Shown one piece after another: positions 4,780 to 29,554 of a DNA stretch of 64,000 nucleotides (position 1 is its first letter; every line of letters starts with the position of its first letter). Source of the stretch: Sedimentisphaerales bacterium. Its GTDB lineage: Bacteria > Planctomycetota > Phycisphaerae > Sedimentisphaerales > SM23-30. The translations under genes and the position numbers were made by a program. Under the pieces are notes generated by a model. That model was not told the origin of the DNA. It worked only from the letters and a program-made list of their open reading frames with translations, and made no database searches. Location of the stretch: the NCBI GenBank assembly GCA_963666285.1, contig OY762711.1; one strand, written 5' to 3'.

Positions 4780-6924
4780 CTACAAAGACCTGATCAGCAT
4801 TGCCAGAAGCAGGCTGCGGTCTATTATGCTCGCACGCACAATCTTTTCTTTCCTGCTTTCATCCCATTCACCAAGCGGCCCCATCCCGCCAATTCGCGGT
4901 TTATCTCCTTTTACATTACATAACTCAGATGACGACCAGCGATGCTCCGGTTTTACCCTTACATCAATAGACTTGGCAACAGATTTAGTAGCCTCAAATA
5001 AAGCGTCATTTTTGTCACATTGCGGCATAGGTAACCGATGTATGCCGCCATCAAAAATTACCTCTATATCTTTCTTAAGTTTACCGGGAGAAGCCAGCTT
5101 ACGGACACGTTTATCAATACTGTCGAAAGATTCCAGGCAGTTAAACCTTACACTCAACCCGGCAGAGCCGAAAGCCGTAGCCCGAAAAATATTTGACTTA
5201 AACGAGATATCATATGGTGATATCACAACCGTATCATCATTTTGCGATAGTTCACTGATATTCATCAAAGTTTTATTGAACAGAGTTGAAACAGAGACAA
5301 CTTTTTCCGGTTCGATATTATTTTTTAACCTGATTGTATATCGATATGAAGCAGAACCCGAACGCGATGTTACAATACCTCCATCCATTGTGCCTCCGTG
5401 CATACCAATAATATAGTTTGCATTTAATGACTTAGCATCTATTGCCGGGCCGGAATATTTCCCGTTCAGGGTATCATCTGTCGATAGCATAATGCCAACT
5501 TTTTTCTTCTTTAAGCTGCGAGCAAATTTAAGAGCCTGAAGAGCCGCTACACAAACAGCAATTCCACCTTTATTGTCCCAGATACCGGTGCCGGAAATAT
5601 ACCTGTCAGATTCAGAGTAATACAAATGATTGGAAATCCCTACCCTGGTATCAAGAGAAAGCATAATAAGTACATCCAGATGTTCATCATAAGAATTGGT
5701 AAAAAACATAGGATTACCAACTTCAATCTGCGGGTATACCTGATATGTAAAACCAAGCTGGCTAAGCTCTGACTGTACCATCTGGGAACATTTATTTACA
5801 CCTTCTGTATTACGGACATATGTATTAATATTTACAAGCTTCTTTAAAAATTTCTCTGTCTGCGGCTGCCGACCTCGCAGGAAAGTTCTCAACCTGCTGT
5901 GCAGCGGTGTCTTTACTGATTTGGGGCTTGGTGTTTCAGCCGGAAAGTCTGTAAAATAGCGAATCGTCGCGACATCAAGCATTTTTGTCACCATCGACTG
6001 ATAATCATAACCGGCAACCTGGGCAGCATTGAAATACGAGCCTGTCAGGCCAAGACTGGCCATCGAGTTAATCTCCAGCAAGAAAATGTTATCCTGTTGG
6101 TCCATACGAATATCTACCCTGGCGAAATCACGGAGGTCAAGAGCCTTAAACGCATCCCTACTTAATTTAGCCATCTTTTCAGCTATCTCTTCGGATATAT
6201 TCGCAGGACATATTTTATTGCGAGGTCGCTGTTTCTTATCACCCTCGGTCTGGATAGCATCGGGGTCATTTTCAAGATCTATTTCAAGAACCGGAAAGGT
6301 CTCAACCGGTGAGTTCCCCAATATCCCGACGCAAAATTCCCTACCTCTGATAAATTGTTCAACCAGGGCCTGCTGTTGAAACTCAGTAATAATAAAATGG
6401 ACAGCCTCCTTCAAATCCTGCTCGTTATAAACAACCTTCAAGCCAAAAGAAACGCTCTCCATCTTGGGCTTTACTATCACAGGATACTTAACCGACGACA
6501 TATCATCATTAGGCGTGCTGAATACCCAATAGTCAGGAGTAGGTAATCCGTTATTTTTCCAGATAACTTTGGTCAAAACTTTATCAAGGGCAAGTGCATG
6601 TCCGGCAGGTGAGGAACCGACGTAAGGTATTCCCAGCATTTCCAGTAGTGACGGGATATGCGTGTATCTGCATTCTCCCTGGATACCATAAGCCATATTA
6701 AAGACCATACCCATTTGTTCGCCTTCGATCACTCTGGGCATAAATTCTTCGAGCCTCTCGATAATATATTTATTACCGTCAAGAACCGCGACATTATGCC
6801 CAACATTCTCCAGGCATTTCGCAACCCTGAGTACAGTTTTTTCTGAATAAGTTTCCTTATTCTGCATTCCAAGCTGGTTAATAACACCACTCATATCCTT
6901 GTTGTGAATGATAGCGACTTTCAT
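4780..6924 (-). CDS. Fusion protein: N-terminal D-alanine--D-alanine ligase-like ATP-grasp domain plus C-terminal M20-family metallopeptidase (DapE/ArgE-like) domain
   Basis: The N-terminal 330 aa carry Ddl hallmarks (VFNMAYGIQGECRY..LLEMLGIPYVGSSPAGHALALDK, ..LLEINSMASLG..). The C-terminal 380 aa carry M20 hallmarks (..GIWDNKGGIAVCVAALQALK.., GMHGGTMDGG). Confidence 0.6.
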   Translation of the reverse strand: MKVAIIHNKDMSGVINQLGMQNKETYSEKTVLRVAKCLENVGHNVAVLDGNKYIIERLEEFMPRVIEGEQMGMVFNMAYGIQGECRYTHIPSLLEMLGIPYVGSSPAGHALALDKVLTKVIWKNNGLPTPDYWVFSTPNDDMSSVKYPVIVKPKMESVSFGLKVVYNEQDLKEAVHFIITEFQQQALVEQFIRGREFCVGILGNSPVETFPVLEIDLENDPDAIQTEGDKKQRPRNKICPANISEEIAEKMAKLSRDAFKALDLRDFARVDIRMDQQDNIFLLEINSMASLGLTGSYFNAAQVAGYDYQSMVTKMLDVATIRYFTDFPAETPSPKSVKTPLHSRLRTFLRGRQPQTEKFLKKLVNINTYVRNTEGVNKCSQMVQSELSQLGFTYQVYPQIEVGNPMFFTNSYDEHLDVLIMLSLDTRVGISNHLYYSESDRYISGTGIWDNKGGIAVCVAALQALKFARSLKKKKVGIMLSTDDTLNGKYSGPAIDAKSLNANYIIGMHGGTMDGGIVTSRSGSASYRYTIRLKNNIEPEKVVSVSTLFNKTLMNISELSQNDDTVVISPYDISFKSNIFRATAFGSAGLSVRFNCLESFDSIDKRVRKLASPGKLKKDIEVIFDGGIHRLPMPQCDKNDALFEATKSVAKSIDVRVKPEHRWSSSELCNVKGDKPRIGGMGPLGEWDESRKEKIVRASIIDRSLLLAMLIRSL

Positions 6925-18707: not shown

Positions 18708-19493
18708 TCACGCCGCGGCATGCACTTCCGCAGGTATACGATACTTCAACGCAACATGCGGTCTACGAGTGTTGTAAAGCTCAATTGCCTGCCTTACTGC
18801 TGCATATACATGAGCCTTTTCCTTAAACGTTTCTTTTAATCCATATTCATATTTCAATATACCATTTAGCCGTTCCGCCTTGGCATTCTCATAGCAATGG
18901 TTCTCTTCGGTCATGCTTATCTGTAATCCATTTCTCTGCAACTTATCAATATATCTGTGACAGCAATACTGACAGCCTCTATCCGAATGGTGAATCGCTT
19001 TACTCCCTTTCGGCAGCTGCTTTATCGCCATCGACAATGCCCTTAAACAACCTTCGGCTTCCAAGCTATCACTACAATCATAACCTACTATCTTGCGGCT
19101 ATAAGCATCCATTACCAATGCCAGATACATAAAACCTTCATTTGTACGTATATATGTTATATCACTTACCAGAGCCTGATTAGCTCCTGTCAGTTCTGCA
19201 TCTTTCAACAAATTATTATAAACCTTAAAACTATGACGACTATTTGTAGTTGTAACATATCGTCTTTTACGCTTTATCAGCTTATCATACTTATCCATAA
19301 GCTCAAAAAAGCGATCACGGCCTATTTCTATACCAACAAGCTCCAGTACTGGACTTATCAACTCCAAAACCTTACGACAGCCTAACTCTGGTTGCAATCT
19401 GCGCTCTGCCTCAACCAGTTCTATAATCAAAGCTTCATCTATAGATTTCTTCTTACGTTCCTTGCGTGCTTTATAGTAGTTTTGCCTGCTCAT
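18708..19493 (-). CDS. IS3-family transposase OrfB (DDE/rve integrase core)
   Basis: 261 aa with rve-type catalytic region ..SDITYIRT..HHSDRGCQY...NAKAERLNG.. Confidence 0.7.
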   Translation of the reverse strand: MSRQNYYKARKERKKKSIDEALIIELVEAERRLQPELGCRKVLELISPVLELVGIEIGRDRFFELMDKYDKLIKRKRRYVTTTNSRHSFKVYNNLLKDAELTGANQALVSDITYIRTNEGFMYLALVMDAYSRKIVGYDCSDSLEAEGCLRALSMAIKQLPKGSKAIHHSDRGCQYCCHRYIDKLQRNGLQISMTEENHCYENAKAERLNGILKYEYGLKETFKEKAHVYAAVRQAIELYNTRRPHVALKYRIPAEVHAAA

Positions 19494-19516
19494 ACCTACA
19501 AGACGACAAAAGCCTG

Positions 19517-19942
19517 CTATCGTCGCCTTTTGGGAACTACCTTCCTGCGGCTTCTGCGAGGCACGTTCAACTGCTGTGTGCTTACTTTTTTTTTGAAAGC
19601 TTCTGGATCGACGCTAACTTCCTCACATAGCTCCTCAAATACTGCTTCATTCAACAAACTCTGCATATGAGTATCTGCTAATGCCTCTTTCAGCTGCTTA
19701 ATCTCAGACTTTAGCTTCTTTATCTGATTCTGCTCTTCTGGTTTTTCCACGCGTATAACCTTTGGTACTAAGTGGTTACGGCCATATTTAATTAGCCATT
19801 TCTTTACTGTCTCGCCACCTGGTATCCCATAATGACGATTAGCTTCCGATATACTACCCAGCTTACCAGATTCCAGATCATTTACAACTTGTAACTTAAA
19901 TGCCTCACTATATCTATTGTTTGCCTTCTTAATTATTGCCAT
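19517..19942 (-). CDS. IS3-family transposase OrfA (HTH)
   Basis: 141 aa, helix-turn-helix N-terminus, leucine-zipper-like middle, basic C-terminus. Confidence 0.7.
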   Translation of the reverse strand: MAIIKKANNRYSEAFKLQVVNDLESGKLGSISEANRHYGIPGGETVKKWLIKYGRNHLVPKVIRVEKPEEQNQIKKLKSEIKQLKEALADTHMQSLLNEAVFEELCEEVSVDPEAFKKKVSTQQLNVPRRSRRKVVPKRRR

Positions 19943-20044: not shown

Positions 20045-20072
20045 CTCAAACCAACCATCGGTCAGTTTGAGT
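20045..20072. terminator. Palindromic hairpin motif (CTCAAAC..ATCGGTCAGTTTGAG) abutting the stop codon of the convergent 20072 gene, preceded by CCTTATG-type heptamer repeats (20014..20041)
   Basis: One of three copies (also 33029..33055 and 44293..44317); probably a bidirectional terminator. Confidence 0.4.
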
Positions 20073-23000
20073 TATTTATTAACCTGATTCATCCATTCAC
20101 TAACCATAAACTCAAAGTCAGCAATAGTAACAAAACAGTCATCGCCGGCAAGCTCCGCTGACAACAGGCAGTTGTCTGGCTCATCTGAAAGCTGCCATTG
20201 CATTGCCAGGATCGCAAAATCGTCCAGCCGAACAAAGCCGTCACCATTCAGGTCTGATGCTATCCTGTTATTGACGTCAATCACACCCTGGCCTGAAAGC
20301 TGCATGACCACACCGTCCCACTCTGCCGTATAAGTATGTGATACTCGAGATTCGATCAGTTCAATATATACTGACGCTATACCGGCATCATCTGTCACTG
20401 CTGTAAATTCCTCTACTGCCCCATCACCATCAGTATCGATACTAAAGATAATTGTCTGGCCGACAATACCGATATTACTATTGGTTAGAACTGCTTCAAG
20501 AACTCCTCCAGCCACATTCGGCGACCAGTTGAATTCTACATTTGCAGCAACCAGAACTGCACCATCAATCACATCTCCAATACCATCATGATCAGAATCC
20601 GCCTGATCTGCATTTGATACTGTCGGGGCATTGTCAAACGCCATTGCCAGCGAATAATCGCCCAGGGTCATCGGCTGACCAACAGAGTTAACATACTCCA
20701 GCAGGGTCATCCACTTTTCCCAACGCTCCAGGTCAACCATATTATTTTCCCTGTTTAACGCATCGGAAACATCACAATATTCCAGCCTATCCAAATCATT
20801 GCAATATCTGGTAGACCACTCGACCTCCTCGATCAGCCAGGTATTCAGCTCTCCTGCCTGAGTAATAGACTGAAGATATTCCAGATAAGTTGCATACCCG
20901 TAATTCTCCGGGTTAACCTGCATATCGGCACTCGCATGAAAAATACCAAAATCATCGAACATCTCGTGATGAGTACCTTCCGGGGTAAACTTGATGCTAT
21001 TCTCCTCGTATGTACTGGCAGAAAAACCGGTAAAATACAACCTTGATACAGCATCACGACTAATCGTATCCGAGGCATTATACGGCGGTACATAAGATAT
21101 GAATGGATTGGCAGCATTGGTCCAGTCAACCTTTGGACTGTTATCAGGATCGGCACCCGAATCTATTATCCACATATCTCCATAATCACCCAACATAGTT
21201 CGCTGGCCGATTCTTAGATATTGATACATCTCTTCGAGGGTAAAACCGCAAGTCTCACATGAGTAGTTATTCAAACTCGAATCATCTGACCAGTCACCAT
21301 TCAAAGTATTATTGGCATGATAAGTGCCATGCTGACCTAACTCAAGTTTTGGGTTAGATATCCTGGCATTCATCCAGCGTATCGGGTCATCATCACCATA
21401 TGCATTCCAGATCTTTCGTGGTATTACCGCCAGAGAGATAGGGGTATTCTTTCCACCTGGTAAATCTAACGGAACCTGGTAACCTGCGGCTGCAGGTTCA
21501 TCTCCAACTCCATTATAACTGTAATTCCTGTTGAGCTCCCATTCTTCCGGACTCAAAATTGCCGCATCAGTCATCGTCTGGGTAAACTCATTCTGAAATA
21601 CTCTGCCAAGTGCATCAATTCGTATTATAAAATGCGTATCGCTATTTGACCAGACAGCCTTTGCCTGCATTGCCTTTCCATATAAATACGGATCAAGCGG
21701 CCCATCAAATATGCCGTCACTATCTGTATCAGTATTATTCAGCGGATCGGAAACATCTCCTCTCCCGTCCTGATCAAAATCCAACTGTTCAAAATTGGGG
21801 ACAAACGGACTGTTATCGTTAACATCCGGTATCCCGTCATTATCATCATCGTCATCTGCCGGGTCACCCACACCGTCCTGATCGTTATCCAGCTGGTCGA
21901 GATAGTTAATACCGCCATCATCGTTCATATCCAGTCGCGGAGCGTTCGGATGAAGCGGTGCATTATCAAAAAGATCAATAATACCGTCCATATCACTGTC
22001 ACCCCGATTTGTAAACAAACCTGAGACTACCGCTTCCTTATTGCCAAATGCAATATCAAGAAAATCATCTTCCAGAGAATTCAGCTGGCCGATCGCCAGA
22101 CCACGAGCCTCGGTACCCTCTGATCCGATAGTACCGGCATACAAAAATTCTGGTGCTCCATTCACATTACCGGTATTAAGCCATAGGTCAACTGTACCGC
22201 TCCATATCCCGGCACTGCCGCCGACCGCAAAATCGGTCATGCCGTCTCCGTTAAGATCGCCGCAATCTATGCTTAGCTGGGTTGTAAATGTTTCTTGACA
22301 GCGGGCATAGGCAAAAGGACGGGTGCCGGTACTGATTTTATTATAAAGCACCGGGCTGAATACGCCGCTGCCGTCATTCAAATATACATATACATAACTG
22401 GCTGCATCGGTCAGCATCAGGTCAACATCTTCATCACCATCCATATCTGCCAGTGCCAGACCGTAGCCGTCAATATTCGAGCTTGACTTAGGCGGATAAT
22501 ACGGCGGAAGCTCAGGATTCGGGGAATAGCCCAGATCCTGCCCGGAGATAAGTATTTCAGGCGTATCCCATATCGGATTACCATAAGCATCATTTCCCAA
22601 ATTACGAAACAGAACAACATCTGCCAATGAATTTTCCGAAGCGGTTATATCACCCGCTATAATATCTATGTCATTATCACCATCAACATCTCCCGCTGCT
22701 ACGGCACAGGATGCCGTACCTGCATCACCAACAAGCAAACCAACTTGAGGAAATCCTGTCGACTGAAAGCTGCCGTCTCCATTGCCCAGGTAAAGATACA
22801 CTTCACCGCTTAGTATCGGCGGACTGGTCAGGGTATAGTCATCACGCATAGTCAAAACAAAGTCTGCATTACCATCATTATTAAAATCAGCTGACGCAAG
22901 ACCGTAAGCATTATGATATGCCTGGTTTATCACAATGCCATTATCTGTAAACGTACCATCGCCATTTCCGGCAAACAGGTGAATATCGCCATATGTATCA

Positions 23001-23194
23001 CCACTGAGTATATCTGGTATGGTATCGTTATTAAAGTCAGCGATATCCATACCAAAAGCCCGGCTTCTACCAGCGATTTCAGCCAGCCGATACTGGTAAA
23101 AACCAGGCTGTAATATATCTGCTGTAACAACAGTACTTGTCATAGCAAACAATAATAACGATATTAAACTGGCATACAAAGACTTCATAGCCAT
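20072..23194 (-). CDS. Large secreted FG-GAP/VCBS-repeat protein with thrombospondin type-3-like Asp-rich repeats and a C-terminal dockerin domain
   Basis: Signal peptide. Repeated ..ADFNNDGNADFV.. FG-GAP motifs, DNDQDGVGDPADDDDDNDGIPD calcium-binding repeats, and a C-terminal dockerin-like DLNGDGFVRLDDFAILAMQW. Confidence 0.6.
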   Translation of the reverse strand: MAMKSLYASLISLLLFAMTSTVVTADILQPGFYQYRLAEIAGRSRAFGMDIADFNNDTIPDILSGDTYGDIHLFAGNGDGTFTDNGIVINQAYHNAYGLASADFNNDGNADFVLTMRDDYTLTSPPILSGEVYLYLGNGDGSFQSTGFPQVGLLVGDAGTASCAVAAGDVDGDNDIDIIAGDITASENSLADVVLFRNLGNDAYGNPIWDTPEILISGQDLGYSPNPELPPYYPPKSSSNIDGYGLALADMDGDEDVDLMLTDAASYVYVYLNDGSGVFSPVLYNKISTGTRPFAYARCQETFTTQLSIDCGDLNGDGMTDFAVGGSAGIWSGTVDLWLNTGNVNGAPEFLYAGTIGSEGTEARGLAIGQLNSLEDDFLDIAFGNKEAVVSGLFTNRGDSDMDGIIDLFDNAPLHPNAPRLDMNDDGGINYLDQLDNDQDGVGDPADDDDDNDGIPDVNDNSPFVPNFEQLDFDQDGRGDVSDPLNNTDTDSDGIFDGPLDPYLYGKAMQAKAVWSNSDTHFIIRIDALGRVFQNEFTQTMTDAAILSPEEWELNRNYSYNGVGDEPAAAGYQVPLDLPGGKNTPISLAVIPRKIWNAYGDDDPIRWMNARISNPKLELGQHGTYHANNTLNGDWSDDSSLNNYSCETCGFTLEEMYQYLRIGQRTMLGDYGDMWIIDSGADPDNSPKVDWTNAANPFISYVPPYNASDTISRDAVSRLYFTGFSASTYEENSIKFTPEGTHHEMFDDFGIFHASADMQVNPENYGYATYLEYLQSITQAGELNTWLIEEVEWSTRYCNDLDRLEYCDVSDALNRENNMVDLERWEKWMTLLEYVNSVGQPMTLGDYSLAMAFDNAPTVSNADQADSDHDGIGDVIDGAVLVAANVEFNWSPNVAGGVLEAVLTNSNIGIVGQTIIFSIDTDGDGAVEEFTAVTDDAGIASVYIELIESRVSHTYTAEWDGVVMQLSGQGVIDVNNRIASDLNGDGFVRLDDFAILAMQWQLSDEPDNCLLSAELAGDDCFVTIADFEFMVSEWMNQVNK

Positions 23195-23260
23195 ACCCTT
23201 TCTGATAAAATCAGCATTCTCTTTTTTAATCTCTCACAAATAATTCGACAGCATTTATTA

Positions 23261-23965
23261 TTAGCGGCGTTTCAGCAGCAATCCGCCAAAACCAAGTAAT
23301 ATCAGAGTCATAGGTTCAGGAACCGGGGAAACATATTCCCACATTACACCGGCAGAACGCATTGATACCCAGCTGCCGTCACTGGAAATTTGTGATACTG
23401 TGTACGTCTGCCCTTCAGTAAGAAGAACTTCCTTGCCTATCAACAGCCAGGCATTATTAGCACCAAGAAAAACTGTACCAACCGGCGGATTCTCTACTGC
23501 TGCCATAGCCATCGCGACTGTTCCGCCATTATTCATATCCACACCTGTATGTACGATCGTATCACCATCATTTTCAACTTCTATGGTACATGTTGTTGAT
23601 AGCGGAGTTGTATCTGGCCAGGTTATATATACGTTATAATACCCTGACTGGCCGCCATCCAGATTTGTTGAATATATACCATTTCCAAAATATCGACCGG
23701 AATCTTCCGGCACATCCCAGTTGTCAACATCCGATCCTGGCGTATAAGAAAAAGTATAAACATCAACCGGATCAGCTACAGTACTTCCATAAGCACTTTG
23801 GCTTGCGGTTAAGCCGGGAGCTGTTCCGGCAGTAGTCGAAAATCGCGGCGTACCGGTAAAATTCGTACTACCCCTGCCGTCACTATACGGCTCGACAATA
23901 AACGCGGCATGAATACTACCAAAAAGAAATAATACCAAAAGTACAACACAAACATAATTTTTCAT
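23261..23965 (-). CDS. PEP-CTERM-anchored secreted protein
   Basis: Signal peptide plus the C-terminal sorting signal VPEPMTLILLGFGGLLLKRR (PEP motif, TM helix, basic tail). Confidence 0.7.
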   Translation of the reverse strand: MKNYVCVVLLVLFLFGSIHAAFIVEPYSDGRGSTNFTGTPRFSTTAGTAPGLTASQSAYGSTVADPVDVYTFSYTPGSDVDNWDVPEDSGRYFGNGIYSTNLDGGQSGYYNVYITWPDTTPLSTTCTIEVENDGDTIVHTGVDMNNGGTVAMAMAAVENPPVGTVFLGANNAWLLIGKEVLLTEGQTYTVSQISSDGSWVSMRSAGVMWEYVSPVPEPMTLILLGFGGLLLKRR

Positions 23966-24236: not shown

Positions 24237-24474
24237 AAGAAACTAGGCCAACATATAATATATGTCCGACAAAATAACCTTTTTATAACGGTTATTATTC
24301 TAAATATTTTATTTTTTGATCTGATGAGTGACAAACTAACACTTAATGTCAAGATAGGAATTATAGAGAGAGTGGTGAAATATACTATGACCTAAAACCA
24401 ACAAACTAGTTAATAAGACTTGAAATATTGCCAAAAAACTCAATTTCATTCTTACGGCATTCCTCAACTGTCTG

Positions 24475-24900
24475 CTATTTGGGAAATATCCCTGTCGGCT
24501 CCAGGTTAAATTTCGAAAATGACCTCAGTACAGCCTTTCCCATTCTTTTAAGATATGATACTAGAAGCGGCTGACTGTAATCATGATGGCTTAGCAGACT
24601 CAACGCAAATGCAAGCTGAGTCAGTGAAACATTATAAAATGGCGGATCACATACGATAATATCGAATCTTTCAGTTATCCATTCCGGCTTGAGCAGGTCA
24701 TACCTCCGGTAGCCTCGCAGATCGCTAAACCTTTCATCAATATCGAGTACGGTAACATCAACAGACCTCTCACCTAGCTTCTTACCCAGCATCGGACAGC
24801 AGATACAGCATGGCCTTTCCCAGTTTAACAATAAATCCGCTAATAGTTCCAGTGATTCATCATCGAAAAAGTATTGTTCATTTTTATGATTTTCGTCCAT
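24475..24900 (-). CDS. Compact RsmD/N6-methylase-like putative SAM-dependent methyltransferase (DPPF motif)
   Basis: 141 aa. ..CCICCPMLGKKLG..VTVLDID..FDIIVCDPPFYNV parallels RsmD motif I (DCFAGSGALG), motif II (LIEMD) and motif IV (FVDPPF). Lies 3 nt downstream of the prfH stop. Confidence 0.35.
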   Translation of the reverse strand: MDENHKNEQYFFDDESLELLADLLLNWERPCCICCPMLGKKLGERSVDVTVLDIDERFSDLRGYRRYDLLKPEWITERFDIIVCDPPFYNVSLTQLAFALSLLSHHDYSQPLLVSYLKRMGKAVLRSFSKFNLEPTGIFPK

Positions 24901-24903
24901 AAC

Positions 24904-25530
24904 CTACCTGACCTCTTTAAATTTCTCGCCCCTGAAAACTCGAACCGGGTTACCTCGTTCAAGATTTCCATGCCCGGCCCACCTGCTCTGCTGATTTTCT
25001 GCTTTCATATTATAATTATGCTCTTCCAGCTTTTCATTCAAATTTCGCAAAGCCAGCTTACGGTTCATATGCTGACAGCGGCTACCACTTGCCATTGTCG
25101 AAATTCCAGTCGGCACATGAGTCACCCGTATCGCCGATTCGGTTTTATTAACATGCTGTCCGCCCGGCCCTGATGACCGCATTGTCTCAAATCGAAGGTC
25201 TTTACTGTTCAACTCCAACTCATCCGGCACCTGGCATAACTCAACACCGACAAACCAGTTTTTCCTTTTATGGTTAGGTCGATATTGACTTTGCCCGGTC
25301 CACTGCACTGTACCGGTCCAGCTGTCGATAAGACCAGTAAGCCCCTCCCCTTTAATAGAGATCAAGGCTGACTTAAAAATTTCCGACCGGTTTCCCGGCA
25401 CAAATTCCAATACCTCCGCATTGCCGCCTATCGCCAATACTTCTCTGCAAATAGCTTCAACAATTCTTGCAACAACCCAGCAGCATTCGTCCGGCCCACG
25501 ACCGGATGTAACCTGTAACCAGTATTCCAC
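24904..25530 (-). CDS. prfH: Peptide chain release factor H-like protein (RF-H)
   Basis: 208 aa. GGQ motif SGPGGQHVNKTESAIRVTHVPTGI. The N-terminus LQVTSGRGPDECCWVV resembles E. coli PrfH (LQLSSAQGPEECCLAV). No codon-recognition domain, which is the PrfH architecture. Confidence 0.75.
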   Translation of the reverse strand: MEYWLQVTSGRGPDECCWVVARIVEAICREVLAIGGNAEVLEFVPGNRSEIFKSALISIKGEGLTGLIDSWTGTVQWTGQSQYRPNHKRKNWFVGVELCQVPDELELNSKDLRFETMRSSGPGGQHVNKTESAIRVTHVPTGISTMASGSRCQHMNRKLALRNLNEKLEEHNYNMKAENQQSRWAGHGNLERGNPVRVFRGEKFKEVR

Positions 25531-25551: not shown

Positions 25552-27327
25552 TCAATGCCGTCTGGCATAATATAAATCCTCATTTTCAGCCCACCGTCTA
25601 ATTATAGCTTTTTCTTCATCTTTGGCAAACCTGTTATACAAACCTCTCACCTGGCATATTTCCTTTTTTGAAATATATACTTCAATCGTCAGGCATTTTT
25701 TCCGCTCGGATTCGGTTTCCAGCTCCATCGACCATATCGAACTCTTTCCCTTATTACATGAGTGAGCATATGTTGCTACACAATGACGAAGCTTTCGACC
25801 CTCAGTTATCAGTTCCCGGCTGGTGACCAGCTCTGAGATTCGCCAGACTCTCATATTATTATGTTCGCATTCTCCTTCTATATAATTAAACGGAGCTATA
25901 CCACTAAACTCCCATTTCAAATCGCTTACACCTGACTCTTTACCAAGTCTGTTATGCCAGTTCTTCACCGCTCTTAACAGCCTGCCAACTGTACGGCCCT
26001 TCATCGAAAATTCAGGCTGCGCCGGGCCGCGATTTTCCGCCACACCCCTATCAACAAACACTATCTGGTCTTCATATTTCTGATTCCAGATATAGTCTAT
26101 TACCGGCCCGACATAAACAACATCCAGCATAGGGTTACGAGCGAGAAATTCGATAACCTTAACCCAGAACTCATCATCTCTGAAATCATCTTTCAAGCGA
26201 GTTTCTACTATAGCATCTGCCAGCCTCTCATCCCCTCCGGCCGCCATAACCTGGCCCCATCGAAAAGCCTCTTCAATAGAATAACTATCAGGAGCGGTAA
26301 GAAAATAATGTGCCGTTTTCTTTGTCATTTTAATCGGCAATGATTTATTATTACGTATATTCTTACCAATCCCAATCTGCTTATACACTTCCTGGTATAA
26401 TTCATTGCCTGTAAGCCATGCCTTATCCATAAATTCCGGCACATCATACCTGGCCCACAAATGCCTCAACAAAGAGCAGAACTGCTTATTTCGATTATGT
26501 GTAGTAACCTTCCATTCATTAAGCGGCCTGATCCAGCTGTCCCTGCCTTTAACAATTTCAAAAATAGCCTTTACGTACAAAGGATCATGACAAACCTTAC
26601 TCCTTGCATCAATATACCTGAATATATCATATATATTTTTTCGATTGGCTGAGTTTGCAAAACCTTCATAAATTACTTTTGCAATTTCAGATTTCAAACT
26701 CTGCTCGTTTAATTTATTTTCCCGCGCAGCTGCTATCAGCTTTTTAAAGTTTCGTACCCGCTTATCCTTTGCCAGTAATTTACCACTGTCTTTCTCTCCG
26801 CTGTCAATCCCTGATATTATTTTCTTAAATGCTCCATCACGCTCTTTTGCCAGGTTCAGGTTGCCGCCCATATCAACACCTTCGGCACTACAGCGTAAAC
26901 AATACATATGCTTTACTATAAGGTGCTCATTTGCAACGGTTATCGTTTTAAGACGACGTTTCCCTATTCGCCCATCAAGCATACCGACAGCTTTTATGAT
27001 CAGGTTTCTCGACCGCAATATTTCATCTATACCAAGGGTTAGATATTCTTCCAACGACCTGGCCAGCCTCAAATTCGTAAAGCTTGGCGTTTCATATCGA
27101 AAGTTATCCTGTCCCGAATAATACCACTCTACTTCTTCAGAATAACATTCATAGTCGCTGACATATACCGCAGCTGAACTTCTCTTCGGGCCTCTTTTAT
27201 CAATTGCAATCCACGCCTTATTCCAGTAACTGGAATAGTAATGATTATCAATTCCAAAACTTATTCGACCTCTTACCGATCCGGCCAAACAGCCGTATAT
27301 TCTTTTTTGTATCTGATTCCATTTCAT
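25552..27327 (-). CDS. Large uncharacterised protein with a C-terminal PcfJ-like domain
   Basis: 591 aa. C-terminal ..LRHCVATYAHSCNKGKSSIWSM.. fits the PcfJ-like signature (HCV..Y...C..G..I.S). The N-terminal 400 aa are unassigned. Sits between rtcB and prfH in the same orientation. Confidence 0.5.
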   Translation of the reverse strand: MKWNQIQKRIYGCLAGSVRGRISFGIDNHYYSSYWNKAWIAIDKRGPKRSSAAVYVSDYECYSEEVEWYYSGQDNFRYETPSFTNLRLARSLEEYLTLGIDEILRSRNLIIKAVGMLDGRIGKRRLKTITVANEHLIVKHMYCLRCSAEGVDMGGNLNLAKERDGAFKKIISGIDSGEKDSGKLLAKDKRVRNFKKLIAAARENKLNEQSLKSEIAKVIYEGFANSANRKNIYDIFRYIDARSKVCHDPLYVKAIFEIVKGRDSWIRPLNEWKVTTHNRNKQFCSLLRHLWARYDVPEFMDKAWLTGNELYQEVYKQIGIGKNIRNNKSLPIKMTKKTAHYFLTAPDSYSIEEAFRWGQVMAAGGDERLADAIVETRLKDDFRDDEFWVKVIEFLARNPMLDVVYVGPVIDYIWNQKYEDQIVFVDRGVAENRGPAQPEFSMKGRTVGRLLRAVKNWHNRLGKESGVSDLKWEFSGIAPFNYIEGECEHNNMRVWRISELVTSRELITEGRKLRHCVATYAHSCNKGKSSIWSMELETESERKKCLTIEVYISKKEICQVRGLYNRFAKDEEKAIIRRWAENEDLYYARRH

Positions 27328-27498: not shown

Positions 27499-28908
27499 CT
27501 AATCTTCCGGCCGTTCACCTGCCGGTGCCATCTTAACGATCTTTGGGTCAAACCTGGCAATCTTCTCTACCAGGTCACTCTGGGCCGACATTACCTCATC
27601 GATATTCTTATACGCCATCGGCACCTCGTCAAGCCCGGCAGTTAATACTCGCACACCATTGGCTTCCAGGAACTTCTTCGCATCATGCCAGGTATAAGTT
27701 TCCTTCGCCTTCTTACGGCTCATCCGGCGACCTGCACCATGTGACGCCGAGTTCAGCGACTTCGGATTACCTTTACCACGCACTACATAACCCGGCGTTG
27801 CCATCGAACCGGGAATAATACCCAACGCACCGACACCGGCCGGGGTCGCTCCTTTACGATGTACAATCACTTCCTTGTCATCATGCTCTTCCTTCCAGGC
27901 AAAGTTATGATGGTTTTCGACATCCAGCAAAACCTTAACACCAAGATTCCTGGCAATATGCTTATGCACCAGTTCATGGTTGGCCGCGGCATAACGACCC
28001 ATCAGCTCCATCGCACGCCAGTATTCCTGACCTTCATCGCTGTCAATATCCAGCCATGCCAGGTGCATCAGTTCCTTTGGCAGTTCAAGATGTCGTTTCA
28101 TCGCAAGTTTACTATAATACGTAGCTATCTCGTTACCAGTACCGCGGCTGCCGCTATGGCTCAACAATGCCAGGTAGGTGCCGGCTTCCAGTCCGAGATC
28201 ATACTTTTCAAGCGTCAAAGTACCAAACTCGACAAAATGATTTCCGCTGCCGCTGGTACCCAGCTGGCTCCAGGCCTTATCCTTCAAACTCTTGACAGTT
28301 GAGCTGAATGTCCAATCTTCATCCATGACATCATGCTCACGTCTGCGCTTAAAAGTCGCTCCTACACCAAAACGAGTCTCCATTTCTAACGCATTCTTCA
28401 GCAAACCAAACTGGCCGTTAATCGCTGATACCGGCATATCCAAAACCGTCATCTTCATCCGGCAGGCAATATCAACTCCAACTGCATAAGGAATCACTGC
28501 CCCTTCCGTTGCCAGTACCCCGCCGATAGGCAGGCCATATCCGGTATGAGCGTCCGGCATCAACGCACCTCGCACCGAAATCGGAAGCTTACACGCATTC
28601 TCCATCTGCTCAATCGCAGAATCTTCCATGTCATCACCCCAGCGTTTATAATACGCCGGACTCTGACGAGGTACATACATGGCTTGTGCTGCTTTGGTCC
28701 GATTCAATACCTGTGCCGTTGCACCAAAAATCTCATCGTTAAAATATTTCTCTGCATTTGCCACTAAATCCGCAACCTTCTCACGCAGGACACTCTTGTT
28801 CTTACCGCGGCCTTCGTCGGAACGAACCCACCGCATGATCGCCTTTTTGATAAGGTCCATCGCCTCACCCTTCGGCACTCCAAGATTTAATAATTCTCTG
28901 GTCTTCAT
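27499..28908 (-). CDS. rtcB: RNA-splicing ligase RtcB (3'-phosphate/5'-OH RNA ligase)
   Basis: Conserved blocks ..AVGVDIAC.., SGNHFVEFG, HNFAW..HRKGATPAG..IIPGSM..SASHGAGR, PMAYKNIDEVM. The start is taken at MKTRELL (GGGAAA Shine-Dalgarno); the track begins at an upstream GTG. Confidence 0.85.
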   Translation of the reverse strand: MKTRELLNLGVPKGEAMDLIKKAIMRWVRSDEGRGKNKSVLREKVADLVANAEKYFNDEIFGATAQVLNRTKAAQAMYVPRQSPAYYKRWGDDMEDSAIEQMENACKLPISVRGALMPDAHTGYGLPIGGVLATEGAVIPYAVGVDIACRMKMTVLDMPVSAINGQFGLLKNALEMETRFGVGATFKRRREHDVMDEDWTFSSTVKSLKDKAWSQLGTSGSGNHFVEFGTLTLEKYDLGLEAGTYLALLSHSGSRGTGNEIATYYSKLAMKRHLELPKELMHLAWLDIDSDEGQEYWRAMELMGRYAAANHELVHKHIARNLGVKVLLDVENHHNFAWKEEHDDKEVIVHRKGATPAGVGALGIIPGSMATPGYVVRGKGNPKSLNSASHGAGRRMSRKKAKETYTWHDAKKFLEANGVRVLTAGLDEVPMAYKNIDEVMSAQSDLVEKIARFDPKIVKMAPAGERPED

Positions 28909-29116
28909 AATATCAATTTCCCTTATCTCAAACATCTGTAAAATTATTGTCTTTAATAAAAATAGTATCACCTCGCGAAGCGATCATTATCCACCCTCGC
29001 CGTAGGCGTATCCTTTACTGTTGCCTCATCACTTCTGTCCACTGCCTTTTTTTTAGAGTTGACACAACTCTCTGGAACTCATCCAAAAGTCTTTTGGATA
29101 CATTCGACATTCAGTT

Positions 29117-29554
29117 TCATGTTCCACTCACATCACGCGGCAGATTCCTGTCGGCATAAGCCCATTCAACCTCACGCTCCGTCCAGGTATGACAGCTCGG
29201 CTTTACCAGCTCAGGATTATCCAGGCTGCCGGCCTTTATAAATATGTGGTCCGGACATTTCTCGGCACGGGTAAACAACGGCGAACCGCAATCCGGGCAA
29301 AAATCACGCGTTATATCTCGACCGCTGTCTGCTTTTGAGGTATAACTCTTCACCTGCCCGCTCAATATCTTCAGCTTGCTCTTTTCCGAAACAATACCAA
29401 CTGTAAACGGACCGCCCGTCGCTTTCTTGCAGTCATCGCAATGACAATAGCTCGATTCACCAACTTCACCATCATACTCATAGCGAATCCCGCCGCATAA
29501 ACAACCACCTGTAAACTTACTGTCCATACCTGCTCCTTCTAATAATCCAGCCAC
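29117..29554 (-). CDS. GFA-family (glutathione-dependent formaldehyde-activating / CENP-V-like) zinc-binding protein
   Basis: 145 aa with the CxC..C..CxxC cysteine pattern (GGCLCGGIRYEY..SYCHCDDCKKATGG..FCPDCGSPL). Confidence 0.6.
   Translation of the reverse strand: MAGLLEGAGMDSKFTGGCLCGGIRYEYDGEVGESSYCHCDDCKKATGGPFTVGIVSEKSKLKILSGQVKSYTSKADSGRDITRDFCPDCGSPLFTRAEKCPDHIFIKAGSLDNPELVKPSCHTWTEREVEWAYADRNLPRDVSGT

What the first reader, a model, noticed from the sequence alone, without database searches (positions are those of the whole stretch)
24475..24900. Minimal DPPF-motif methyltransferase-like gene translationally coupled to prfH
Class-I release factors need N5-glutamine methylation of GGQ by an NPPY/DPPY-motif methylase (PrmC). 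Here a 141-aa ORF follows the GGQ-containing PrfH after a 3-nt gap. It carries RsmD-like motifs (degenerate G-loop CCICCPMLGKKLG, acidic motif II VLDID, motif IV CDPPFYN). That is much shorter than any characterised Rossmann methylase. It could be a dedicated PrfH-GGQ or rRNA methylase, or a degenerate non-catalytic binder.
Basis: partly seen in the sequence, partly recalled or inferred. Interest (0 to 1): 0.55.

Follow-up and report, generated by a model that had tools for sequence, protein, structure and literature searches.

The report
Truncated methyltransferase in RNA-repair operon
The small gene after prfH is a copy, cut short by a stop codon, of a ~170-residue bacterial methyltransferase family (Pfam PF10237) that recurs in Rtc RNA-repair operons in several phyla, so it is not a special minimal enzyme for PrfH.

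Summary
The ORF is real: minus strand, 24475-24900, 141 aa, ATG 3 nt after the prfH stop. It is a clear member of Pfam PF10237, the family of the eEF1A-Lys79 methylase EFM5/EEF1AKMT1; the 28S rRNA m6A methylase ZCCHC4 is its closest solved structure.

The "minimal" size is an artefact. An in-frame TAG replaces a Tyr that is invariant in 75/75 homologous loci (TAC/TAT in the two nearest relatives). The frame then continues for 22 conserved codons. Homologues are 159-183 aa. The truncated product keeps the SAM-binding half (strands 1-5) but loses strands 6-7.

PrfH linkage is narrow. It holds in only 3 of 79 other family loci, and in 0 of 16 other RtcB-PrfH loci. The recurrent partners are Rtc RNA-repair genes:
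- rtcA, rtcB or rtcR in 17 of 79 loci, across at least five phyla
- YrlA Y-RNA-like genes and Ro60
- a fusion to the RNA 2'-phosphotransferase Tpt1 next to rtcB

Best reading: an uncharacterised DPPF N-methyltransferase that accompanies Rtc RNA repair. Its target is probably an RNA base but is untested. This copy is probably inactive. Moderately interesting as a family lead; ordinary as a locus.

The parts
24475..24900 (-). Annotated 141-aa ORF: the N-terminal 141 codons of a PF10237 (DPPF) SAM-dependent methyltransferase, ending at an in-frame TAG (24475-24477)
24406..24474 (-). In-frame continuation after the TAG: 22 codons (QTVEECRKNEIEFFGNISSLIN) plus a stop. It encodes the conserved family C-terminus, including strand 7. 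No indels relative to L078 or L001
24904..25530 (-). prfH (208 aa, GGQ present); stop TAG, 3-nt gap, then the ATG of the methyltransferase
25552..27327 (-). 591-aa SF0329 / PcfJ-like gene lying between rtcB and prfH. Absent from relatives L001 and L078 and from 16 other RtcB-PrfH loci, so probably a lineage-specific insertion
27499..28971 (-). rtcB RNA ligase (the ORF as listed; the true start is probably the ATG at 28908, since relatives align from residue 22)
29117..29554 (-). GFA-domain gene between rtcA and rtcB (also present in L078)
29582..30622 (-). rtcA RNA 3'-phosphate cyclase
30893..31390 (-). Array of 5 tRNA genes inside the operon (Leu-tag, Met, Pro, His, Leu-taa)
31449..32552 (-). 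Band 7 / SPFH gene
32793..33927 (-). Array of 4 tRNA genes at the head of the operon (Leu-aag, Lys, Gln, Glu)
34049..34064 (-). Sigma-54-like -24/-12 element, TGGCACggcggTTGT, between rtcR and the first tRNA. The consensus is not enriched in the window as a whole; only the position is suggestive
34209..35801 (+). rtcR, the divergently transcribed sigma-54 activator of the rtc operon

Best explanation
The ORF is a nonsense-truncated copy of a small (about 170 aa), single-domain bacterial clade of Pfam PF10237, a class-I SAM-dependent N-methyltransferase with an Asp-Pro-Pro-Phe catalytic motif. In this genome it is the last gene of an RtcR/sigma-54-type RNA-repair operon: tRNA array, band7, tRNA array, rtcA, GFA, rtcB, PcfJ-like, prfH, MT. 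It is translationally coupled to prfH. At family level the gene is a recurrent accessory of Rtc RNA repair, not of PrfH. Proposed mechanism (inferred): the full-length enzyme binds SAM through motif I (C34-x-P36-x-L38-G39), Asp53 at the end of strand 2, and the N-terminal NEQYFFD loop. It transfers the methyl group to an exocyclic or side-chain nitrogen held by Asp85 and Phe88 of DPPF. The target is most likely a base of a tRNA or rRNA that the Rtc system heals and seals. That would mark or protect repaired RNA, by functional analogy with Hen1 in Pnkp-Hen1 repair. In this window a TAY-to-TAG change at invariant Tyr142 removes strands 6 and 7 and six nearly invariant residues, so this copy is probably inactive unless the TAG is a sequencing error or is read through. 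Shown: family membership, truncation, operon structure, Rtc linkage. Inferred: the RNA substrate, the protective role, the inactivity.
Against: No substrate has been tested for any bacterial member. The family has no RNA-binding accessory domain, whereas ZCCHC4 needs three zinc-finger domains to bind RNA (PMC6834594). Most members are acidic to neutral (pI 4.8-7.8 in 21 of 23). One of the two characterised PF10237-type enzymes is a protein-lysine methylase, and Pinto et al. (PMC6954407) state that the target cannot be predicted from sequence or structure. About 62 of 79 loci show no RNA-repair neighbour, and the immediate upstream genes are otherwise variable. A base N-methyl group does not chemically block re-cleavage as Hen1's 2'-O-methyl does. 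Inactivity of the window copy is inferred, not shown. The sequence after the stop shows no decay, so the mutation is recent, an assembly error, or tolerated.
Confidence: 0.55

Rival explanations
1. The family is a protein N-methyltransferase (Lys or Gln), like its eukaryotic relative EFM5/EEF1AKMT1. It would modify a translation or repair protein such as EF-Tu, RtcB, RtcA or a ribosomal protein, and is co-expressed with Rtc when translation is damaged.
For: PF10237 includes the eEF1A-Lys79 trimethylase (PMC10238732). NCBI names a 249-aa Syntrophus homologue 'protein-lysine N-methyltransferase'. The family has no RNA-binding domain and mostly acidic or neutral pI.
Against: The closest solved structures are RNA base methylases, although no EFM5 structure appeared among the matches for comparison. 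The recurrent partners all act on RNA ends: RtcA, RtcB, a Tpt1 fusion, Y RNA and Ro60. No EF-Tu-like gene recurs near the family; the CysN-like neighbour is only synteny with L078.
Confidence: 0.25
2. One reading: a dedicated methylase for the GGQ glutamine of PrfH.
For: A 3-nt gap after prfH, conserved in L078, and the same gene order in L001. The (D/N)PP(F/Y) motif class includes the glutamine methylases PrmC and Mtq2.
Confidence: 0.05
3. The TAG is not a real truncation. It is an assembly or sequencing error, or it is read through at a useful level, so a full-length 164-aa enzyme is made in this organism.
For: The 22 codons after the TAG are in frame, free of indels and as similar to relatives as the rest of the gene. 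A single third-position change separates TAG from TAC/TAT.
Against: The 141-aa product is the form held in public protein collections (P0001, sources ncbi and ena). TAG is a normal stop in this window. No tRNA with a CUA anticodon is present among the window's 10 tRNAs. A substitution is not the typical long-read error.
Confidence: 0.2
4. The 141-aa product is itself functional as a minimal or non-catalytic SAM-binding module.
For: The truncated model keeps strands 1-5 and all SAM-binding motifs at pLDDT 87.4.
Against: None of the homologues listed as complete genes shares this truncation. The lost segment holds invariant Tyr142 and nearly invariant T144, N151, I153, E154 and N158 (P0003 numbering). 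AlphaFold confidence does not measure the stability of a truncated fold.
Confidence: 0.05

Closest known systems
ZCCHC4 methyltransferase domain (human 28S rRNA m6A4220 methylase; PDB 6UCA)
   Different: ZCCHC4 is about 513 aa, with GRF, C2H2 and CCHC zinc-finger domains that form the RNA-binding platform. The bacterial proteins are the bare 165-175-aa catalytic domain. Sequence similarity is marginal (profile against PDB E 0.31). ZCCHC4 is eukaryotic and acts in ribosome biogenesis, not in a repair operon.
EFM5 / EEF1AKMT1 (N6AMT2), the eEF1A Lys79 trimethylase
   Same: Same Pfam family, PF10237, with a DPP(F/Y) motif. It shares the N-terminal Q-[FY]-[FW]-[YF] motif, the degenerate motif I and the D-x-R-F motif II.
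   Different: The eukaryotic proteins are 214-250 aa, with an N-terminal extension and a different C-terminal half; only the first 89 columns aligned (human sequence recalled from memory). Their substrate eEF1A does not exist in bacteria. There is no RNA-repair context.
Hen1 of the bacterial Pnkp-Hen1 RNA repair system
   Same: A SAM-dependent methyltransferase encoded in an operon with RNA end-healing and sealing enzymes. This is the precedent for 'repair plus methyl mark' that protects the repaired RNA (established knowledge, not tested here).
   Different: Hen1 is a 2'-O-ribose methylase of a different family, without a DPPF motif, and works with Pnkp rather than RtcB/RtcA. No sequence or specific structural relation was found here.
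PrmC (HemK) and Mtq2, the N5-glutamine methylases of release-factor GGQ
   Same: Class-I fold and a (N/D)PP(Y/F)-type motif; the target is a nitrogen atom.
RtcR-regulated Rtc / Rsr-Y RNA RNA-repair operons (E. coli rtcBA, Salmonella rsr-yrlBA-rtcBA) and the rtcB2-prfH module
   Same: The window carries rtcR, rtcA, rtcB and prfH. Related MT-containing operons carry YrlA-like RNAs and Ro60.
   Different: The described operons and the accessory genes listed for RtcB-PrfH (TPR, Pol-beta NTase, ZnR proteins; PMC6514570) do not include a methyltransferase. The tRNA arrays, band7, GFA and PcfJ-like genes are additional here.

Membership tests
Pfam PF10237 (N6-adenineMlase; EFM5/EEF1AKMT1-type methyltransferases) | Score above the curated gathering threshold of the family HMM | tested here: met
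   67.6 bits against a cut-off of 23.2, E 1.4e-18, profile positions 1-141 of 166. All homologues carry PF10237.
Pfam PF10237 (N6-adenineMlase; EFM5/EEF1AKMT1-type methyltransferases) | D-P-P-[FY] motif directly after strand 4, plus an acidic residue at the end of strand 2 and a glycine-containing loop after strand 1 | tested here: met
   D85-P86-P87-F88, D53/D55 and G39 are invariant in 23 sequences. Their positions relative to the strands were read from the model.
Pfam PF10237 (N6-adenineMlase; EFM5/EEF1AKMT1-type methyltransferases) | Complete seven-strand class-I methyltransferase domain | tested here: not met
   The family fold is complete in orthologue P0003. The window product stops at residue 141 and its model has strands 1-5 only. 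The Pfam match ends at profile position 141 of 166.
EFM5 / EEF1AKMT1 orthologue (eEF1A-Lys79 methylase) | End-to-end similarity to EFM5 proteins and presence of the eEF1A substrate | tested here: inconclusive
The substrate is absent from bacteria (established knowledge). Activity is not testable here.
ZCCHC4-type rRNA m6A methylase | Methyltransferase domain flanked by GRF, C2H2 and CCHC zinc fingers that bind the rRNA | tested here: not met
   The protein has a single domain. No other Pfam family passes threshold and homologues are 159-183 aa. The catalytic domain alone is structurally closest.
PrmC/HemK release-factor glutamine methylase | NPPY motif, PrmC N-terminal domain, specific similarity to PrmC | tested here: not met
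PrmC/HemK release-factor glutamine methylase | If dedicated to PrfH: consistent co-occurrence with prfH | tested here: not met
   PrfH is present in 3 of 79 other family loci. The methylase is present in 0 of 16 other RtcB-PrfH loci.
RsmD (PF03602, 16S rRNA m2G966 methylase) | Score above the family threshold | tested here: not met
   13.4 bits against a cut-off of 24, E 0.063. The RsmD-like HI0767 protein scores E 0.19-0.32 in PDB sequence searches.
Accessory gene of Rtc RNA-repair operons (proposed here, not an established family) | Recurrent same-strand adjacency to rtcA, rtcB or rtcR in unrelated lineages | tested here: met
   17 of 79 loci, in at least 6 clades of the family tree and at least 5 higher taxa. 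There is a gene fusion with Tpt1 beside rtcB. Caveats: no formal background model was run, and 62 loci show no such link.
Hen1-type repair methylase | Hen1 2'-O-methyltransferase domain; partner Pnkp | tested here: not met
   No Hen1 or Pnkp family hit for the protein or its neighbours. The resemblance is functional analogy only.

The most novel reading that the evidence does not exclude
The bacterial PF10237 clade is the missing methylase arm of RtcB/RtcA RNA repair. It would be a bare-domain N-methyltransferase, induced by RtcR on tRNA or rRNA damage, that writes a base methyl mark (for example m6A) on repaired or operon-encoded tRNAs or on rRNA. The mark would make them refractory to the ribotoxin, a Hen1-like 'repair and immunise' logic that evolved independently. 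In Sedimentisphaerales it would have been attached to the PrfH ribosome-rescue module.
Probability: 0.25. Interest if true: 0.65.

Novelty: new member of a known kind. Interest (0 to 1): 0.38.

Why it matters
As a locus it matters little. It is a recognised Pfam family member, already held in public databases as a 141-aa protein, and probably disabled by a nonsense codon. The family-level pattern has more value. A rare (448 representatives in 1.84 billion proteins), very small DPPF methyltransferase recurs inside RtcR/RtcB/RtcA/Y-RNA operons and is fused to Tpt1. I found no paper that lists a methyltransferase among Rtc or RtcB-PrfH accessories. The physiological substrates of bacterial Rtc systems are still debated, so an operon-encoded methylase offers a direct biochemical handle: find what it methylates and you learn what the operon repairs. 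It would also add a third substrate class to a family that already has one protein-lysine and one rRNA-adenine enzyme.

Tried and rejected
- Weak thioredoxin hits in PDB sequence searches (E 0.07-2) and in NCBIfam: chance similarity around W-x-x-C-C-x-C-x-P, not significant.
- Known anti-phage defence membership: PADLOC returned nothing meaningful for the methylase, PrfH, the PcfJ-like protein, RtcB, GFA or Band7.
- A suppressor tRNA in the operon's own arrays that could read the TAG: none of the 10 tRNAs has a CUA anticodon.
- TAG recoding in this genome: rejected. TAG ends 11 of 40 long ORFs, including prfH.
- A link to the neighbouring eEF1A-like GTPase (CysN-like, 35926-37167), tempting because EFM5 methylates eEF1A: it is only shared synteny with L078.
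- A conserved operon partner across the whole family: the immediate upstream genes are highly variable, with RtcB among the most frequent Pfam families.
- The Nostoc megaplasmid homologue (H9/L160): no rtc genes or tRNAs nearby.
- Naming the longer, weaker hits through cluster look-ups: mostly unnamed metagenomic proteins.
- The AlphaFold-database fold library was unavailable.
- Burroughs & Aravind 2016 (NAR 44:8525, PMC5062991) is not held, so I could not check whether that survey already noted this methylase.
- An exact look-up of the window protein's contig found nothing on record.

Full report
**Observation**

The ORF is real but lies on the minus strand: 24475-24900, 141 aa.
- It follows prfH (24904-25530, minus; TIGR03072 255 bits; GGQ present).
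- The junction reads AGG TAG GTT ATG, which is a 3-nt gap, with a GAGG about 10 nt upstream of the ATG.
- In the AlphaFold model of a 67%-identical orthologue they sit where class-I methyltransferase motifs I, II and IV should:
  - strand 1 plus the CCICCPMLG loop
  - VLDID at the end of strand 2
  - strand 4 followed by DPPF

**Family**

- The protein matches Pfam PF10237 ("Probable N6-adenine methyltransferase") at 67.6 bits, E 1.4e-18, against a cut-off of 23.2.
- RsmD's family PF03602 scores only 13.4 bits, below its threshold.
- PF10237 is the family of EFM5/EEF1AKMT1 (N6AMT2), the eEF1A-Lys79 trimethylase (PMC10238732).
- Pinto et al. call N6AMT2 the human enzyme most similar to the 28S rRNA m6A methylase ZCCHC4. 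They note that the target therefore cannot be predicted from sequence (PMC6954407).
- The bacterial clade is small and uncharacterised:
  - 775 clusters at 90% identity
  - 448 representatives among 1.84 billion proteins
  - names such as "hypothetical protein" or "probable N6-adenine methyltransferase"

**Why the ORF is "minimal"**

Every homologue extends about 25-35 residues beyond the window protein, with a conserved P-x-Y-x-T-V...N-E-I-E-F-F-G-N tail.
- Translating through the window's stop gives ...PTGIFPK*QTVEECRKNEIEFFGNISSLIN*.
- The TAG at 24475-24477 therefore sits in frame at a position that is Tyr in 75 of 75 other loci.
- That codon is TAC in L078 and TAT in L001.
- No indel follows the TAG.
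- Other loci encode 159-183 aa, median 171.
- TAG is a normal stop here: 11 of 40 long ORFs, and prfH itself.
- None of the window's 10 tRNAs has a CUA anticodon.

The 141-aa size is therefore a one-base nonsense change, or possibly an assembly error, and not a minimal architecture.

**Structure**

- Full-length P0003 folds confidently (pLDDT 88.6, pTM 0.86). The last strand is at residues 153-157, and short strands at 134-135 and 142-143 lie around the mutated position.
- The window's 141-aa product, modelled with the same alignment, keeps strands 1-5 and the SAM-binding half. It has no strand after residue 114.
The seven-strand domain is nevertheless incomplete.
- ZCCHC4 is well ahead of METTL5 (12.8) and a long generic tail.
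- Foldseek agrees: ZCCHC4 at E 4e-9, then TrmM, NodS, RsmC and TrmN.
- In ZCCHC4 a loop C-terminal to DPPF carries Tyr340, which hydrogen-bonds the catalytic Asp and is needed for activity (PMC6834594).
- The family's invariant Tyr142 lies at a similar spacing. I could not verify the equivalence residue by residue.

**Genomic context in the window**

Pfam assigns the following:

| Gene | Coordinates | Strand |
|---|---|---|
| rtcR | 34209-35801 | + |
| Band7 | 31449-32552 | - |
| rtcA | 29582-30622 | - |
| GFA | 29117-29554 | - |

- On the minus strand, four tRNAs precede Band7 and five lie between Band7 and rtcA.
- After GFA come rtcB, a 591-aa SF0329/PcfJ-like gene, prfH and the methylase.
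- A near-consensus sigma-54 element, TGGCAC-N5-TTGT, lies between rtcR and the first tRNA. The consensus is not enriched window-wide, so only its position is suggestive.
- The closest relatives have the same operon without the PcfJ-like gene: L078 (rtcR | band7, rtcA, GFA, rtcB, prfH, MT) and L001.

**Is PrfH the partner?**

A scan of one genome per species returned 77 loci encoding the family, in many phyla. With L078 and L079 added, that makes 79 other loci.

| Neighbour | Loci with it nearby |
|---|---|
| PrfH | 3 (L001, L078, and L076 at 4 kb) |
| rtcA | 12 |
| rtcB | 12 |
| rtcR | 9 |
| any rtc gene | 17 |

- Several Planctomycetota loci carry rtcR | ... rtcB-MT-rtcA, confirmed by Pfam.
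- Rfam YrlA (Y RNA-like) lies immediately upstream of rtcB in L041, L046 and L055.
- L065 has a Ro60/TROVE gene.
- In Bacteroidota the methylase is fused to the RNA 2'-phosphotransferase Tpt1 (P0028). That fusion gene lies two genes after rtcB and downstream of a 10-tRNA array (L079).
- Rtc-linked members fall in at least six separate clades of a neighbour-joining tree.
- Conversely, a metagenome scan with the window's PrfH gave 16 genuine RtcB-PrfH loci, and none carries the methylase.
- The remaining ~62 family loci have variable neighbours.

The family is therefore an occasional but recurrent accessory of Rtc RNA repair. The prfH adjacency is a feature of one Sedimentisphaerales-like lineage.

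**Mechanism**

What is shown:
- an intact, invariant SAM-binding and DPPF catalytic apparatus in the family
- expression context within RtcR-type operons
- physical fusion to an RNA end-processing enzyme

What is inferred: the enzyme methylates a nitrogen on an RNA handled by the repair system, either tRNA or rRNA. This could mark or protect the RNA, by analogy with Hen1 in Pnkp-Hen1.

Evidence against an RNA target:
- the family has no RNA-binding domain
- pI is mostly acidic to neutral
- one characterised family member is a lysine methylase

I put RNA base methylation at roughly 0.45, a protein target at 0.25, and PrfH-GGQ specifically at 0.05. In this window the enzyme is probably inactive, because six nearly invariant residues and strands 6-7 are lost. 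The undecayed downstream frame leaves about 0.2 for a sequencing error or read-through.

**Literature**

- Burroughs & Aravind (PMC6514570) list TPR, Pol-beta nucleotidyltransferase and zinc-ribbon proteins as accessories of RtcB-PrfH, but no methylase.
- The PrfH papers mention only PrmC, used to methylate GGQ in recombinant PrfH (PMC12829566).
- Searches combining RtcB, RtcA or PrfH with this family's names found nothing.
- The 2016 survey of RNA repair systems is not held, so prior mention there cannot be excluded.

**Verdict**

The gene is a new member of a known family, truncated here. The Rtc linkage of the family is a modest but testable lead.

Noticed in passing
window 30893-31390 and 32793-33927 (minus); L001 2401-4831; L078 3580-4005; L079 68-1513; L065 4747-5069; L067 5933-6372; L055 3118-3190; L032 717-791: tRNA gene arrays lie inside or at the head of rtc operons: nine in the window, between the sigma-54-like promoter and rtcA. 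This recurs in relatives and in a Bacteroidota rtcB locus. The tRNA sets differ between close relatives. tRNA-Arg(acg) recurs in five loci: L001, L055, L065, L067 and L079. A precedent exists: cyanobacterial tRNA L-arrays are co-regulated with rtcB and HNH genes (PMC8421152), and L032 has HNH, tRNA-Val, rtcB and the methylase in that order.
   Followed up: partly
window 30893-30966, 31315-31390, 33855-33927 (minus); L001 4573-4648: The three 'tRNA-Leu' of the window arrays are 73-76 nt and lack the long variable arm of bacterial tRNA-Leu. One has the unusual anticodon AAG. Window Leu-taa and Leu-tag share one scaffold (GGCYCYGTAGCCCAA...GGTTCGA.TCC) with L001 Leu-tag, Gln-ttg and Arg-acg, but with different anticodons. 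This suggests anticodon-swapped paralogues or decoys.
   Followed up: partly
window 25552-27327 (minus): A 591-aa gene with an N-terminal SF0329 domain and a C-terminal PcfJ-like domain sits between rtcB and prfH. It is absent from L001, L078 and 16 other RtcB-PrfH loci. The only plasmid matches are to the N-terminal domain, in Priestia and Bacillus plasmids. Its function is unknown and it looks like a lineage-specific insertion.
   Followed up: partly
window 24406-25530 versus L078: PrfH and the methylase are only 65-67% identical to L078. The rest of the shared locus is 82-93% identical: RtcR 86, Band7 83, RtcA 82, GFA 82, RtcB 88, CysN-like 93. The distal end of the operon evolves much faster, or was exchanged.
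   Followed up: no
window 29117-29554 (minus); L078 7469-7909; L030 7545-7922: A GFA-domain (PF04828) gene lies between rtcA and rtcB in the window and in L078. A GFA gene also sits immediately upstream of the methylase in a Myxococcales locus that has no rtc genes.
   Followed up: no
L041 5479-5616, L046 5799-5922, L055 3483-3623; L065 about 5100-6686: Rfam YrlA (Y RNA-like) matches above the gathering score lie just upstream of rtcB in methylase-containing Planctomycetota operons. L065 carries a Ro60/TROVE gene.
   Followed up: partly
P0028 / L079 6846-7928; P0094; P0054: Three domain fusions of the family were seen. MT::Tpt1 (360 aa, three cluster members) is one. A PF10237 domain at the C-terminus of a 3673-aa NRPS, after its thioesterase domain, is another. 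The third is MT plus the start of RtcA in one 310-aa call, which is probably a merged gene call.
   Followed up: partly
P0141, P0174, P0175 (Plectus sambesii, UniRef): Three nematode-assembly proteins of 238-248 aa align end to end with the bacterial clade (hhalign E 1e-22), including its C-terminal region. This could be horizontal transfer or bacterial contamination.
   Followed up: no
window 18708-19942 (minus); 20072-23965 (minus): An IS3-type transposase pair (HTH_Tnp_1 plus rve) lies near the locus. A 1040-aa FG-GAP/TSP3 protein and a 234-aa protein ending in a PEP-CTERM-like tail lie downstream of the operon; a 1040-aa FG-GAP gene preceded by a 231-aa gene occupies the corresponding place in L078. 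L078 has three extra genes (SBP, PAS-histidine kinase, Hpt) between the methylase and this pair.
   Followed up: no
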